From contig OZ231126.1 in the NCBI GenBank assembly GCA_965153355.1, forward strand, positions 31,806,001 through 31,870,000: 64,000 nt of DNA. The letters run 5' to 3'. This DNA is from Flaccisagitta enflata. Its lineage: Eukaryota. A program made the position numbers and the translations under genes. Positions 26,401 to 38,400 of the stretch are shown in pieces. The notes beneath the pieces are model-generated. The model had not been told where the DNA came from, made no database searches, and saw only the letters and a list, made by a program, of their open reading frames with translations. Every line of letters starts with the position of its first letter. Position 1 is the stretch's first letter.

Positions 26401-29400
26401 CTTTTGCGCCCCTAGCCATCCACACACCGTAAGTTCATGGACTGATTAGAGTGAGAAATACCATCCTGGCATCTATTGTACCATCGATTTAAAACGGCAG
26501 GCTTATGAAGCGTGTAAGGCACTGCTTATTTTCGGTTTTCATCGCTCTCCAAACATGGGTACGACTGTACGATCATCTGTGATCTTTTGTTTTCAAGACT
26601 TTTTTAGCGATTTTTAAAATCAGGGTTAGGGGTGGGTTTAGGGTTAGGTTTGAACCGAAAGCGAAATACAGGGTCTTCAATCTCATTTGACACAAAAAGA
26701 ACCTATATTGCGCAAAAACTAATTTACTATTCAGTGTGATTTTTTTTCTCATAAAAGCACTATGTATGACGTTTTTTGTATCAAAATTTCATGGGACTGG
26801 GTCTTGTAATTTGGCAGAAATCTAAATTTGAAGTTATGCAAGGAATTCAACAAAAAAAACTGTTTTCTTTCTACTTTTGACTTAGAAAATCCATAAAATT
26901 CAAACAGCTTTAAACCACAGATGCTTTATCACAGTTAAGTGATAGATTCTAACACCTCAAAGCAGGAAATAGTCAGGTTTTATCATATAACTTTTAACAT
27001 TAAGCAAAAACATTACAAATTTGAGCAAAATTCTTACAAAAACTGTGACCAAGATAGTTGTTTTCCAATGGTAGAATTTTTTTTCAGGCGGTCCCGGTGT
27101 TTTTTATGCCATTTACATTCGAATTTTGCGCTTCACTTTCCATCCAAGGCTTTTCAGCACCCAATATCATTCCCAGAGATCGTATTTGAGTCTAAGAACC
27201 TAAGTTTTAAAAAAAAATGGCGATATTTATGTGATTTCAGTTAAAAATAATGATCTAATTTTGGTAAAAATCGTGTAGCAAATATGTAGCACAGAGAAAT
27301 TCTGATTTTTTGGGGCCAGTTTTACTTCATTCATACCGTGGGAAACGTGGAATTATCTCTACTGGCTTATTAGAGAAAGATCAAAAAAAAAATTAGGGCG
27401 ATATCTTTATTTTGACGCAAAAAAGCTTGCTCAAGAGATGCAGTATCAACAACACCGAAATTGCTTTAAACCCATCAATTCTATGCGTTATTTCATATTT
27501 TTTTAGAGGGGGTCTGGCAAGTGAATTAAAGTGATTTTTTTGTTGTAGTCCCTAGATCTAGGCCTAATAGACCGAAGACGACCGTTGATTTGATCAACAC
27601 AATCGCAAGAGAAATTCCTTATCCTCATTTCCAACCAGCCCTATTTCGGACGCTTTAAGAAGACATGTTCCATTTTGTCACAGGTGTGCTTTTAATATCA
27701 TATTCCGTTGTTAAGCAATCTGTGTTGAATAAAGCTGTTTTTTTTCCTTCGTTGGCATGTTTTAAACTCTGCAAAAAAAGAAAACGGAACAAGTGGACGT
27801 AATGATATCAGATTTGATCATGTGACAAGATGACCCTATTTCGGACGCTTTAAGAAACTTGGCGGAAAATAGGCGAAAGTTGCCAGGGGCAATTTCAATT
27901 ACTATAAGGTTGCTCAAAAGTCCGGATTTGCAAGCTAATGAAGGGGAAACGCTAGTTGACGCTTCTGAGAAATTATTTCATTGAAAAATGTCGTCGTCGT
28001 CGTCGTCGTCGTCGTCGTCGTCGTCGTCGTCGTCGTCGTCGTCGTCGGCGTCATCGTCGTCACTAAGTTCGAAAGAAGCATAAGTTTTGAACGCCTCGAC
28101 TCGGAATATTGAAATTCGGTATGAAAACTCAGGAAGGGTTTAGCTAATGCATTTTAACGATTTCTTGGGCTTTTCATAAATACTGGTCAAAAACTGGTCA
28201 AAAACTGGTCAAAAACTGGTCAAAAACTTGTCAAAGTTGGTCAAAGTTGATTGAAACGGGAGAAAAGGCAAAATGACTTGACCAATCATTTTATGGTTTT
28301 GAGAGTAAAGTTTAGCCGCATAGATCTACATGGCATACACTCTTTTTTTTTATAAGAACCTAGTTTATAAGAACATAAAGGCTTCAAATGGCTCCAAAAT
28401 TAATACCATTTTAAGAACATAAGAAGGGTTCAAATCTTAAAAACAAAATTTCACCTACAATAATTTTTAAAGAACATTAAAAAAAAAACACTTAAATTTT
28501 AGCATGATTAAGATAATATTTTATAATTTTTTGATATATATCATAAAAATATCCTTAAAACTTTTATGATTGGCATTTGTTTTAACAGTATTTAATAGAA
28601 ATATATTTAGTATAATTGACTAATAGTATATTATAAGGTTTCCTATAGTTTGTGTAGTGTTTAAAATTAAGAACGCTCTAAAAACCTTGAAAGCTTTATT
28701 TGGCTTGAAAACAAGAACATGAAGCCTTTGAAAAAAAAAGACGTTCTTAAAAAAAAAAGAGTGTTAAAGAATTCCTCACATAAACAGCTCTAACATGAAG
28801 ATAAAGCGATCAAGCCGGAGAGAAAATGAAGACAGCCCTATTAAATCTCTAAGAGATATTCTACATCAAGTACTCGTTGATTAAACCATTGAGCTCGTAA
28901 TCTTCAATAACGAAAACCGTTTCTTCAACGCCGCAAACCTCGGTCGTATTATTTTGACCCAAGAGAGGCGGCGACCTAACTGCCGAAGCATGGAACACTA
29001 AAGGTTGGGCATTGACAGTAGAAAATTGGTTTGGCGCCACTTTCAGAAGAACTTTACCTTGAAGCTGTTCTTGATCAGCAAGTTCCCCCATTGGCGTCGT
29101 GATCAGAACAAGAGATGCCTCCTGCCGTGCACCTTGAGCAATGGCGATGACAGATCCTGCCTGGGCCAGTTCAGCCATGCCATGGCGCTGCCGGTCTTGC
29201 TCTTTACGAGTACGGTCACGGGCAGATCGTTTTTTGCCGGAGGCTCGTGTGACCATGACCCTCTTCACTGGACCAAGCCATTCGGTGCGTGAGCAGCTGA
29301 CAAAATCTCCTACTTCACACGACGCACAAGAGAAGCAGCTAGCTTCACGAGTAAGCAGCTCACCGGGTAATGAGGTCGTACATAATTGGTGAAGATCCCG

Positions 29401-35400: not shown

Positions 35401-38400
35401 TCACTGCCTCTATCACTGTCTATGTCTACCTCTCTGTCTTTGTCTGCCTGTCTGTCTTTCTCTTTGTCTGCCTTTCTCTTTGACTGCCTGTCTGTCTCTC
35501 TTTGTCTGCGTGTTTCTCTTTGTCTGCCTGTCTCTCTTTGTCTGCCTGTCTATCTCTCTTTGTTAGCCTGTCTCTCTTTATGTCTTCCTGCGTGTCTTTC
35601 TAGTTCTATCTGCTTCTGTCGCTGTGTCACAGTCTCTCTTTCTAACTGGCTGCCTGCCTGTGTTTCTCTCTGTCTTCCCGCCTAAGTTTCTCTGTCTTCC
35701 TGCTCGTGTTTCTGTCTTCCTGCCTGTTTCTCACAGTCTTCCTGTCTGTCTTTCTCTCTGTCTACCCGCTTCTTTCTCACTTTGTCTACCTGCTTGTTTC
35801 TCAATTAGTCTACCCGCTTGTTTCTCACTTAATCTACCCGCCTGTTTCTCACTTTGTCTACCCACTTTGTCTATCTGCTCTCTCTCTCTCTCTCTCTCTC
35901 TCTCTCTCTCTCTCTCTCTCTCTCTCTCTCTCTCTCTCTCTCTCTCTCTCTCTCTCCAATTCTACCTTCGATGTTTTGAGTATTGAGGAAGGTGTGGAAC
36001 GCGTTGGCGAAATGGGACGCGTCGACGGGAAAGTCGGAGTAGGGAAAGTCGGAGCCGAGAACGTCGGAGCCGAGAACGTCGGAGCCGAGAACGTCGGAGT
36101 CGAGAACGTCGGAGTCGAGATAGACGGACCCGAGATAGAGGGAGCCGAGATAGAGGGAGCCGAGATAGAGGGAGCCGAGATAGAGGGAGCCGGAATAGAC
36201 GGAACCGGAATAGACGGAACCGGGATAGACGGAACTGCGATAGACGGAACCGGGATAGATGGAACCGGGATAGATGGAACCGGGAAAAACGACCGCTTTG
36301 GCGTTACCTGAATCAAAATTATCAAAAAACTTCGATTGTTTCAGTTTCCTCTTTATCTAATTTAATACTATCTAAACCTTAAAAACACTGTTTTATTGCT
36401 ACATGGGGCAGAAAATCATGGATTTTGTTATGCGATGCGATGCGTCATGGGGAAGAAAATCAAAGGCAGGGGGGGGGGGGGGGAATTAATCAAAGATCAT
36501 AGAACTATATACATCTCTGAAAAATGGCCATTTTTCCAATGATCCGGCCTTGTTTTTCTAGAAGATGTAGGTAGTTACGTTCTAGTCTTTAATTCTTGAC
36601 CAATTCTAGACCAAGTCATATAAAAGATAAGAGATCATTCCTCACCAGTGGTAATTTGACTTTTAGGACTCGGTTTTTCTTGCTTTCATAATAACGTTTG
36701 TTTTGTTCCTGTCTTCTCCGGGCTTTAACATCGTCCGTAACATTTGGTGGCCTCCCATTCGCAAGTTTGAGATTTTCTTCGTCGGAAGATCCGCCATCGG
36801 AAGTAGCCCTGGCCGCCCCTTGCCCCTCACGCTCGTTTTCCTCATCCTCATCACCTTGAACTCCCTTTTTTCTCTGATAATGACGTCGATTTCTCTCACG
36901 TTTTTTTTCTTGTCCATCGTCTTCTGTTTTTCTAGGCCTTCCCCTAGGCTTACCCGTTTTTTTGGTCATGATAATCGGCAAAATACATATAATATTTAAT
37001 TGTGCCTATAGTGGATGAAACAAAGGGGGTTACACATTAAAATTGCCCAATCGTGCCTTACCACCTCCGGTTGTAAATCGGACCTTTTAACCTAGTACAA
37101 TAAGTGTAACAATATCGTTTTCCGTAATTTAGCGAGTTTGAGAGCGCGAGAGAGATTGATCATCCAACACTTGGGATAGTGATCAAAACAATGTTATTGG
37201 TTTTGAACGTAATCACGGGATAAAACGTTCGATGTTTTTTATTTATTTATTTTGGTACTGCACTTGTAAGCCTGTGGGGCTGCCATCTCTGCGCCGTCTT
37301 AACTAGTGGAGCCAAACTGGCATGAGCTTAAAACAAATGCCTGCAATCAAACAAAAGGCGCTCACGCGCTCAGTCTAAATACGTTAGTCCGCTTTGAGTC
37401 GTCCTGGACTTCCGTTCATTTTCCTAATTTGCATAATTAAGTAAAATCTTGCATTTGCCAGCGTACTACGCTTCGTTAAGCACCAGAATTCCCAGAAATG
37501 ACCTTGGGCGATTAATAGGAAAGGTTAAGATCAGTTTCGGATTGATTTGAATGATGAAAATTTTCGTAGTTGCCTGACCGCCTGACTACGGATTCTACCC
37601 AATAAAAAAGAAAATTGTTGAATATGATAAGATTTTGAAGGATTCTTTTCTCACATATAAAAACTAGATGAAATTATCTGCCATTCTAGACCAATCTGCC
37701 ATCTGTAGCTCAAAGCACTTAGAAATGAGAGCAGTCTAAAGATGAAAAGTCAAAACCTCAAATTCAAAGAAATCCGCCCATCTCATTATGACATCTTTAA
37801 CTTTAAAATGGGATATCTCCTAAACTAATTGACCCAGTACCATGAAATTTGGACACAAAAAACGTCATATGTAGTGCTTTTATAAGAAAAAAAATCAAAC
37901 CAAGAAGTTGATTCATTTTTGCACAATAAAGGTTCTTTTCGTGTCAAATGAGATTGAAGCCCCTGTAGTGCTATACTTTCTTATAACGCTAACCCTAACC
38001 CTAATCCGTGACGCTCATGAGCGTGTACATGCCGTTCACTTAGTGAAACATTAACCCTAACCCTAACCCTAACCTCCAAAGCCTAACCCTAACCTCATTA
38101 TCCAGCCCTAACCCTAACCCTAACCCGAGAAACACAACCCTAACCCTAACCCTAACCCAAGAAACATAACCCTAACCCTAACCCAAAAACATAACCCTAA
38201 CCCTAACCCGTACAACAGAAGTGCATTCGCAGGAATGGGTTTGAACCGAAAGCGAAATAGTGCTATACTTTCTTATAACGCTAACCCTAACCCTAACCCG
38301 TGACGCTCATGAGCGTGTACATGCCGCTCACTTAGTGAAACATTAACCCTAACCCTAACCTCCAAACCCTAACCCTAACCTCATTATCCAGCCCTAACCC

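What the first reader, a model, noticed from the sequence alone, without database searches (positions are those of the whole stretch)
26669..37965. Giant DNA transposon combining a Sola2-like transposase with TA target duplication and CAGGG termini
Seen: imperfect TIRs starting CAGGG, TA on both sides, and a spliced, stop-free transposase gene inside. Knowledge, from memory: the DFAE..EIQS.HW / SD...SQF / HGK..D pattern is Sola2-like, and described Sola2 elements have 4-bp TSDs and GRG termini. TA duplication with CAG termini is typical of Tc1/mariner. Inference: this may be an undescribed lineage with altered target specificity. I found no inner TIR pair that would indicate a Sola element nested in a mariner MITE. 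A blunt T|A insertion without duplication cannot be distinguished from one copy.
Basis: partly seen in the sequence, partly recalled or inferred. Interest (0 to 1): 0.85.

Follow-up and report, generated by a model that had tools for sequence, protein, structure and literature searches.

The report
Large TA-inserting DDD-transposase DNA transposon
This is a real 11.3-kb cut-and-paste DNA transposon that duplicated a TA on insertion and carries an intact-looking transposase gene of a poorly catalogued family, but whether that enzyme is the one that moves these ends is not yet shown.

Summary
Window 26669-37965 is bounded by 170-nt imperfect inverted repeats that start CAGGG, with TA on each side. 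The neighbouring unit of the host satellite is an uninterrupted copy of the insertion site and has a single TA.

On the minus strand lies a spliced gene whose last exon is 554 codons (28864-30525). It encodes an RNase H-fold D-D-D transposase (D193, D283, D337; model pLDDT 88.7; Z 9.5 to RSV integrase) with no Pfam family. It has 9 close homologs and about 2,540 distant eukaryotic relatives.

It is not a Tc1/mariner protein by sequence. The Sola2 label could not be tested because no reference sequence was reachable. In one family of distant relatives, TA adjoins only 2 of 11 termini, and one complete element shows ATAT, a Sola-like 4-bp duplication.

The main caveat is that the terminal 280 bp is an extremely abundant MITE-like repeat while the transposase exon is low-copy. 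A composite of a Tc1/pogo-type MITE with an unrelated transposase gene inside is not excluded, although no inner inverted repeats were found.

Verdict: a new variant of a known kind, of moderate interest.

The parts
26667..26668 (.). Left copy of the TA target-site duplication
   Evidence: The paralogous uninterrupted site has one TA.
26669..26836 (+). Left terminal inverted repeat, starting CAGGGTCTTCAATCTCATTTGACAC. It is part of a very abundant repeat that extends to about 26949.
   Evidence: Depth in bins 26570-26949 is 138,000-353,000 in X1/X2, against about 60 in the flank 26000-26189.
28338..28766 (.). Nested 429-bp MITE-like insertion that is absent from other copies of this region
   Evidence: A joint 28337>28767 is seen in contigs of X1, X2 and X3, and the local depth is very high. 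Sequence read.
28861..30525 (-). Last exon of the transposase gene (554 codons plus stop). It holds the RNase H-like core (D193, D283, D337 in P0001 numbering), a Cys cluster (C438, C441, C444, C452) and a C-terminal beta-barrel.
30526..30669 (-). Intron of 144 nt, GT..AG, containing a stop codon
30670..30822 (-). Preceding exon of 51 codons ([14 protein letters not shown]...SAKDRQ)
   Evidence: tblastn with P0016; acceptor and donor read.
31178..31284 (.). Nested SINE-like high-copy repeat inside an intron. Related copies lie at 24765-24945 and 25645-25772.
   Evidence: Inverted pairs I4, I14 and I17. Depth about 1.8-2.0 million in X1/X2, and RNA reads are present.
31499..31573 (-). Candidate upstream exon with weak support
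   Evidence: tblastn with P0016, E 0.012.
31689..33306 (.). GC-rich 15-bp minisatellite of roughly 100 units inside the gene. Presumed to be intronic.
33374..33508 (-). Candidate upstream exon, helix-turn-helix-like ([28 protein letters not shown]), with weak support
   Evidence: tblastn with P0016, E 0.005.
33782..34578 (.). Nested palindromic MITE-like element of about 800 bp, related to the one at 28338-28766
   Evidence: Inverted pairs I2, I6, I8 and I22; cross-matches.
36616..36969 (-). Possible first coding exon ([14 protein letters not shown]..., AT-hook-like and basic). Not supported by homology.
   Evidence: ORF listed. BLASTP against two relatives (P0039, P0016) gives E > 1. Only a by-eye basic RxRxxxYxxRK motif is shared.
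37798..37965 (-). Right terminal inverted repeat, ending ...GTGTCAAATGAGATTGAAGCCCCTG
37966..37967 (.). Right copy of the TA target-site duplication
38237..38320 (+). Paralogous uninterrupted insertion site in the next satellite unit, with a single TA at 38258-38259

Best explanation
An autonomous, or recently autonomous, class II cut-and-paste transposon. Its multi-exon gene encodes a D-D-D transposase with an integrase-like RNase H core, a Cys-rich zinc-type module and a small C-terminal beta-barrel.

Inferred mechanism: the enzyme binds the long (~170 nt) imperfect inverted repeats, excises the element at the CAGGG/CCCTG ends, and integrates it by strand transfer with a 2-bp stagger at a TA. 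Repair of the stagger gives the TA duplication. The same ends have been amplified as a very abundant family of short non-autonomous (MITE-like) derivatives.

The 11.3-kb size is secondary. It comes from an intronic minisatellite, microsatellites and at least three nested repeats.

Shown here: the ends, the TA duplication, the fold and triad, the exon structure of the 3' half of the gene, and the high copy number of the ends.

Inferred only: that this protein acts on these ends, the N-terminal exons, and current activity.
For: - TIRs and termini.
- A paralogous empty site with one TA. The flanks match 21 nt on the left, and more than 60 nt on the right with 2 mismatches, so the insertion is younger than the satellite duplication.
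- A 554-codon last exon that is 82% identical to its nearest homolog and has canonical splice sites.
- D193 is invariant, and D283, D337, H331 and K333 are at least 90% conserved across 123 relatives.
- A model with pLDDT 88.7 places D193 on beta-1, D283 after beta-4 and D337 on the following helix.
- Core residues 170-405 match RSV integrase (Z 9.5, rmsd 3.2, 155 aa), IstA (Z 8.9) and Mos1 (Z 8.0).
- No inverted pair longer than 16 nt links 26800-28870 with 33530-37830, except matches between two nested MITE copies.
- No other long ORF lies between the gene and the ends. The longest is 101 aa on the left.
- Depth falls in steps: ends at about 10^5, subterminal 26950-28279 at about 10^3-10^4, transposase exon 0-2,019 (mostly 10^2-10^3), unique flank about 60. 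This is what a family of many deletion derivatives and few autonomous copies would give.
- Diverged contigs over the exon (7-10% different letters, one with a 78-nt in-frame gap) show several gene copies.
Against: - Only one copy carrying both the gene and the ends was seen.
- TA duplication with CAG-type termini is the hallmark of Tc1/mariner/pogo (established knowledge). The ends are far more abundant than the gene.
- Relatives do not insert at TA. In the GATSAGTAGCAC-ended family, TA adjoins 2 of 11 distinct termini, and the one complete element with matching flanks has ATAT. No candidate TIR pair in the 80 relatives' loci has TA on both sides.
- The termini show no sequence resemblance to those of relatives.
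- No RNA read lay on the transposase exon in the roughly 6% of one polyA RNA run that was read.
- The 5' exons are weakly supported or unsupported.
Confidence: 0.55

Rival explanations
1. Composite element. The outer ends and the TA duplication belong to an abundant Tc1/mariner- or pogo-type MITE that is mobilised in trans by a conventional TA-specific transposase encoded elsewhere. The D-D-D transposase gene, possibly with its own degraded short ends, sits inside one MITE copy. It got there either by nested insertion or by being carried along when the enlarged MITE moved.
For: - TA plus CAG termini are typical of Tc1/mariner/pogo (established knowledge).
- The first ~280 bp has a depth of 138,000-353,000, against 0-2,019 for the transposase exon.
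- Relatives of the protein show no TA preference, and one shows ATAT.
- The element already holds at least three nested repeats, so nesting is common at this locus.
- Sola2-type inverted repeats can be as short as 12-21 bp (passages of PMC3627910). A decayed inner pair could have escaped the 9-nt-seed scan.
Against: - No inner inverted-repeat pair and no inner duplication was found.
- No Tc1/mariner-like ORF remnant was seen in the list of ORFs of 45 aa or more between the gene and the ends; these ORFs were not scanned against Pfam.
- The subterminal 26950-28279 is also repeated at an intermediate level, as expected for deletion derivatives of a longer parent.
- Moving an 11-kb composite to give a clean TA duplication in a young satellite unit needs two successive events.
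Confidence: 0.33
2. Macro-transposition or a fossil. Two separate MITE copies in inverted orientation bracketed a stretch of host DNA that contains an immobile or domesticated transposase-derived gene. The whole segment was then moved once as a unit, or arrived by another rearrangement.
For: - The two arms are only 82% alike over 170 nt.
- The gene has introns full of host-type repeats.
- No RNA evidence either way.
Against: - The first 25 nt of the two ends differ at one position, and the arms align end to end in register, as in a single element.
- Under this rival the unit would have to start and end exactly at the outer termini; that the whole 11.3 kb is missing from the paralogous site, which has a single TA, fits a single element as well.
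- Diverged extra copies of the exon exist, which fits a mobile family better than a single host gene.
Confidence: 0.07

Closest known systems
Sola2 group of the Sola superfamily (Bao, Jurka, Kapitonov & Jurka 2009; described in passages of PMC3627910, PMC4455052 and PMC5751038)
   Same: - A eukaryotic cut-and-paste element with a D-D-D transposase that has no Pfam model (PMC5751038 passages say the Sola RNase H-like domains lack Pfam similarity).
- Relatives are common in Hydra, bivalves and other marine invertebrates. Sola2 is reported in bivalves (PMC10294476 passages).
- One distant relative (L035) is flanked by ATAT, the kind of 4-bp AT-rich duplication reported for Sola2 (PMC3627910).
   Different: - A 2-bp TA duplication instead of 4 bp.
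- CAGGG termini and 170-nt inverted repeats, against the 12-21-bp repeats quoted for the dictyostelid Sola2 elements.
- Homology to a reference Sola2 transposase could not be tested, so membership stays open.
Tc1/mariner/pogo (ITm) transposons and their MITEs
   Same: - TA duplication, CAG-type termini and very abundant MITE derivatives.
- A compact RNase H core without a large insertion domain.
- Fold match to Mos1 (Z 8.0), Metnase (Z 7.7) and Sleeping Beauty (Z 7.2).
   Different: - No sequence match to any Tc1/mariner/pogo Pfam family at E up to 1.
- Different motifs (DFAEK, SDKCxxQF, HGKxEVD) and a D283-D337 spacing of 53 residues.
- Retroviral integrases and IstA score higher than Mos1.
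- A multi-exon gene with a Cys cluster and a Tudor/SH3-like C-terminal barrel.
Retroviral integrases and IS21 IstA (solved structures 7jn3, 1asu, 8b4h)
   Same: - The best structural matches of the catalytic core (Z 9.5, 9.1 and 8.9).
- The layout of a catalytic core followed by a small beta-barrel resembles the integrase core plus its SH3-like C-terminal domain.
   Different: - Sequence identity is 11-12%, with no rve Pfam hit.
- The element has inverted repeats and a 2-bp duplication, not LTRs.
- Z values of 8-9.5 are only modestly above the tool's stated background of 7-8.
ISL2EU and Mirage (other superfamilies listed with 2-bp duplications; TSD lengths recalled, ISL2EU grouping from the PMC4482050 abstract listing)
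   Same: A 2-bp target duplication.
   Different: Their transposases are PIF/Harbinger-like or CACTA-like and should match Pfam DDE families. This protein matches none.

Membership tests
Class II cut-and-paste TIR transposon | Terminal inverted repeats | tested here: met
   170 nt at 82% complementarity; the 25-nt termini differ at 1 position; 0 matches expected by chance.
Class II cut-and-paste TIR transposon | Target-site duplication shown against an empty site | tested here: met
   The paralogous satellite unit has one TA where the element is flanked by two.
Class II cut-and-paste TIR transposon | Repeated in the genome | tested here: met
   The ends have a summed contig depth 10^3-10^4 times that of the flank. 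Diverged contigs lie over the transposase exon. Depth is not an exact copy number.
RNase H-like DDE/D transposase-integrase fold | beta1-beta2-beta3-alpha-beta4-alpha-beta5-alpha core with three acidic residues at the canonical positions | tested here: met
   Model pLDDT 88.7. D193 lies on strand 187-198, D283 after strand 277-282 and D337 on helix 334-352. Z 9.5 to RSV integrase. The triad is conserved in 123 sequences.
Sola2 | Transposase homologous to reference Sola2 transposases (for example the Hydra type element or the dictyostelid DFa-2/PPa proteins) | not testable with these tools
   No Repbase or Dfam access. Bao 2009 and Yuan & Wessler 2011 are not held. Supplements with the Sola2 alignment (PMC3627910 Additional file 10) are closed. 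No dictyostelid protein was among the 120 hits listed.
Sola2 | D-D-D catalytic triad (recalled from the abstract of Bao et al. 2009, which was not seen here) | tested here: met
   D193, D283 and D337.
Sola2 | 4-bp AT-rich target-site duplication (AWWT, ATAT, AAAT, ATTT) | tested here: not met
   The duplication here is 2 bp, TA. The defining feature is taken from passages of PMC3627910.
   The termini are CAGGG...CCCTG.
Tc1/mariner/pogo | TA target-site duplication | tested here: met
Tc1/mariner/pogo | Transposase with the family's DDE/D domain (Pfam DDE_1, DDE_3, Transposase_1) and paired-type HTH | tested here: not met
   No such Pfam hit at E up to 1. The only hit is a sub-threshold DUF3915 match on the low-complexity intron-encoded N-terminus.
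Tc1/mariner/pogo | Structural similarity of the catalytic domain to Mos1 or Sleeping Beauty above other RNase H-fold enzymes | tested here: inconclusive
   Mos1 Z 8.0 and SB Z 7.2, against integrases at Z 9.5 and IstA at 8.9. These differences are small.
KDZ/Zisupton, piggyBac, hAT, MULE, P, PIF/Harbinger, Merlin, Transib, CMC | Match to the superfamily's Pfam transposase model | tested here: not met
   No Pfam family for P0001. None in 9 of 10 distant relatives; the tenth has only an OTU protease domain.

The most novel reading that the evidence does not exclude
An undescribed clade of a Pfam-less, Sola2-like D-D-D transposase superfamily has changed its integration geometry from a 4-bp AT-rich stagger to a 2-bp stagger at TA. 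It acquired long CAGGG-ended inverted repeats that converge on Tc1/mariner in both target and termini, and it is the autonomous source of a MITE family present in thousands of copies in a marine animal genome.
Probability: 0.4. Interest if true: 0.55.

Novelty: new variant of a known kind. Interest (0 to 1): 0.4.

Why it matters
The length of the target-site duplication is one of the main characters used to define DNA-transposon superfamilies. It reflects the spacing of the two strand-transfer sites in the transpososome.

A lineage of a Sola-like D-D-D transposase that makes TA duplications would show that this character can shift inside the superfamily. TA plus CAG ends would then not be a safe diagnostic of Tc1/mariner MITEs in genome annotation. 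The enzyme would also be a compact, integrase-like transposase with a simple TA target and a natural cargo above 10 kb, which could be tried as a tool.

If the composite explanation is right instead, the locus is an ordinary nested-repeat structure.

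Tried and rejected
- Own genome: not held, so no census of copies was possible.
Only 26000-31680 was laid, so the right end and the 5' half of the gene were not examined in reads.
- No RNA holder was listed by the run search.
- The script machine was lost. The junction tabulation for relatives was then done by hand with DNA alignment and the DNA search and is incomplete.
- The first structure model, from the 10-sequence alignment, had pLDDT 50.4 and was discarded.
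- Foldseek against PDB gave no hit at E <= 0.001. The best hits were PIWI domains at 2.5e-3.
- The 19-nt core of the terminus gave 5 matches in genome contigs, all in unrelated bacterial or archaeal records, about what chance gives for 596 Gb. It gave 0 matches in viral contigs.
- Close-family proteins have no relative in viral contigs.
- The upstream ORFs 36616-37005 and 34651-35292 have no significant similarity to the relatives tried, P0039 and P0016 for the first and P0045 for the second (E > 1).
- Boundaries of relatives' elements:
  - L018/L019: the left end is defined but the right homology boundary has no matching repeat.
  - L028, L029, L031, L034, L049: the ends are GGCTATGTG... and (reverse complement) GAGRGTTT..., with no clear duplication.
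  - TGGCTAAG family: no clear duplication.
  - L022: both ends are present but the flanks do not match.
  - L013: a perfect 24-nt pair with GTA on both sides; not followed up.
- ESM Atlas: the nearest clusters are unnamed eukaryotic proteins. DUF7869 is carried by 12% of one cluster only.
- Earlier-findings look-ups by sequence and by place returned nothing.
- Literature:
  - Searches for Sola2 with target-site terms found no report of a TA-duplicating Sola element (2,086 papers held at least 2 of 3 terms, 20 listed; 11 papers; 39 papers). Repbase Reports and most subscription journals are outside this library.
  - Sola2 plus VRTN: 0 papers.
- A whole-window repeat search was swamped by tandem arrays and added nothing.

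Full report
**1. Observation**

The repeat finder gives one outstanding inverted pair in 24000-41000, with arms 26667-26836 and 37798-37967 (170 nt, 82% complementary). Aligned, the two ends read TA|CAGGGTCTTCAATCTCATTTGACAC and TA|CAGGGGCTTCAATCTCATTTGACAC. The 25-nt terminus occurs only at these two places in the window, and none is expected in 100 shuffles.

The host DNA is a satellite of roughly 286 bp that contains telomere-like CCCTAA runs. Its next unit carries the uninterrupted site...GGTTTGAACCGAAAGCGAAA-TA-GTGCTATACTTTC..., with the TA at 38258-38259. Left flank, one TA and right flank are joined there.

**2. The gene**

The minus strand holds a 595-codon open frame at 28861-30648. 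A 776-aa relative (P0016) aligns by tblastn to 30801-28876 at E 8e-45 across an in-frame segment that contains a stop.

On the sequence this segment is a 144-nt intron at 30669-30526, with a GT donor, a pyrimidine tract and an AG acceptor. It lies between exon 30822-30670 and the last exon 30525-28864. Two more upstream exons have weak support: 33508-33374 at E 0.005 and 31573-31499 at E 0.012.

The basic ORFs further upstream (36616-37005 and 34651-35292) show no significant similarity to the relatives tried. They share only a by-eye RxRxxxYxxRK motif with the basic N-termini of relatives seen.

Much of the 11.3 kb is secondary material:
- a 15-bp GC-rich minisatellite at 31689-33306;
- microsatellites at 35300-36300;
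- a nested 429-bp MITE at 28338-28766 that other copies lack (joint in three runs);
- a second, palindromic copy of that MITE family at 33782-34578;
- a SINE-like repeat at 31178-31284.

**3. The protein**

Pfam gives nothing. The only hit is a sub-threshold match on the intron-encoded low-complexity start.

- Close homologs: 9 proteins among 3,896 candidates. The nearest is 82% identical (unnamed, ENA), and one at 55% is from the copepod Caligus rogercresseyi.
- Distant relatives: a profile of the 10 sequences finds 2,540 proteins at E <= 1e-3, 316 at <= 1e-10 and 19 at <= 1e-30 in the 1.84-billion representative library.
- Typical distant relatives are 800-1,200 aa. Of 10 scanned, 9 have no Pfam family and one has an OTU protease domain.
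- Named hosts include hemichordates, echinoderms, bivalves, gastropods, Hydra, a hagfish, a thrips and a green alga.
- Among 81 proteins covering the core, 70 carry D[FYW][SAG]E[NKRHD] and 61 carry [ST]D[GKR][CAGS]xxQ[FY], by narrow regular expressions.
- In the 123-sequence alignment D193 is invariant. H165, Q172, Q207, D252, D283, Q288, H331, K333, D337, K344, H420 and four cysteines (438, 441, 444, 452) are at least 90% conserved.

With that alignment AlphaFold2 gives pLDDT 88.7; the 10-sequence model was useless at 50.4. D193 lies on the first strand of the core, D283 follows the fourth strand and D337 sits on the following helix, which is the canonical RNase H-like D-D-D/E arrangement.

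VIA-align over 48,161 chains puts retroviral integrases first (7jn3_A: Z 9.5, rmsd 3.2, 155 residues). Next come IstA (Z 8.9), TnsB and Mos1 (Z 8.0), Metnase (Z 7.7), Sleeping Beauty (Z 7.2) and Hermes (Z 7.0). Residues 487-565 match small Tudor/chromo/BAH/PWWP-type barrels at Z about 7. The tool's own background is Z 7-8, so this shows the fold class, not a specific family. Foldseek found nothing at E <= 0.001.

**4. Is it Sola2?**

I could not test this directly. Bao et al. 2009 and Yuan & Wessler 2011 are not held, no reference library is available, and the supplement with a Sola2 alignment is closed.

From passages I could read:
- Sola2 elements of dictyostelids have 12-21-bp inverted repeats and 4-bp AT-rich duplications (AWWT, ATAT, AAAT, ATTT) (PMC3627910).
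- Bivalves hold Sola2 (PMC10294476).

A D-D-D triad, the lack of a Pfam model, the host range, and the absence of THAP, XPG or helicase domains in relatives fit a Sola group better than Kolobok or Academ. That last contrast rests on my recall of those families. I put Sola2 membership at roughly one half.

**5. What do relatives duplicate?**

A metagenome scan gave 365 confirmed relatives, of which 80 loci were kept. A script listed candidate inverted pairs around the gene, and none is flanked by TA on both sides.

One family is defined by termini GATSAGTAGCAC, found at element ends in 10 of the 80 loci. Its 11 distinct ends have TA next to the terminus in only 2 cases.

Its one complete element with matching flanks (L035) reads ...ATAT|GATGAGT...ACTCATC|ATAT.... 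This is a 4-bp AT-rich duplication of the Sola type, though a palindromic ATAT cannot be fully separated from an extension of the repeat. The other complete element (L022) has no matching flanks.

Two further families gave no clear duplication. So relatives do not share the TA habit, but the sample is small and was examined by hand after the script machine was lost.

**6. The main caveat**

Contigs of two DNA runs of the same organism (X1, X2) and of a marine metagenome (X3) were laid on 26000-31680. Summed depths were:

| Region | Depth |
|---|---|
| Unique flank 26000-26189 | about 60 (X1/X2) |
| First ~280 bp of the element | 138,000-353,000 (X1/X2) |
| Subterminal 26950-28279 | 1,200-15,000 |
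| Transposase exon | 0-2,019 |
| 30560-31129 | 15-174 |

The tool warns that depth is not copy number, but the contrast is large: the ends are a very abundant MITE-like repeat and the gene is rare.

This pattern fits an autonomous element with many deletion derivatives. It fits equally well a Tc1/pogo-type MITE family, one copy of which contains an unrelated transposase gene.

Against the second reading:
- I found no inner inverted pair.
- There is no other transposase-like ORF between the gene and the ends.
- The subterminal region shows an intermediate repeat level.

For it:
- TA plus CAG ends are classic Tc1/mariner.
- Relatives do not use TA.

No RNA read lay on the exon in the ~6% of one polyA run that was read.

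**7. Verdict**

The structure is a genuine, recently inserted cut-and-paste transposon with a proven TA duplication. It carries an apparently intact gene for an integrase-like D-D-D transposase of a large but uncatalogued (probably Sola-type) superfamily.

If true it is a new variant of a known kind, not a new class.

Noticed in passing
window 31178-31284, with related copies at 24765-24945 and 25645-25772: A SINE-like repeat with GTCCGTCCGTC motifs. It is the most abundant sequence in the laid stretch (summed depth about 1.8-2.0 million in X1/X2) and the only part with substantial polyA RNA coverage (about 150 reads per strand class).
   Followed up: partly
window 28338-28766 and 33782-34578: Two nested copies of one AT-rich MITE family with [18 protein letters not shown] ends. 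The first is absent from other copies of the surrounding sequence in three runs (joint 28337>28767), so it inserted after the host element multiplied.
   Followed up: partly
window 26620-26660 and 37990-38590: The insertion site lies in a satellite of roughly 286 bp that carries telomere-like TTAGGG/CCCTAA runs in both orientations, which suggests a subtelomeric or interstitial-telomeric region.
   Followed up: no
P0001 residues 420-565 (window about 28950-29390, minus strand): Downstream of the catalytic core there is a conserved H-C-C-C-C cluster (H420, C438, C441, C444, C452) and a small beta-barrel resembling Tudor/chromo/PWWP domains or the SH3-like C-terminal domain of integrases. This could be a chromatin or target-DNA reader.
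   Followed up: partly
P0254 (relative from Plakobranchus ocellatus): A distant relative is labelled 'vertnin' by its source and ends in an OTU-like protease segment. This raises the question whether vertebrate VRTN is a domesticated member of this transposase superfamily. No paper in the library links Sola2 and VRTN.
   Followed up: no
window 31689-33306: A 15-bp GC-rich minisatellite of about 100 units raises local GC to 60% inside the transposase gene. It keeps several reading frames open for 500-690 codons on both strands, and these are artefacts of the repeat rather than genes.
   Followed up: no
L013 1545-1568 / 7874-7897: A relative's locus with a perfect 24-nt inverted pair flanked by GTA on both sides. 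It may be a 3-bp duplication in another branch of the superfamily.
   Followed up: no
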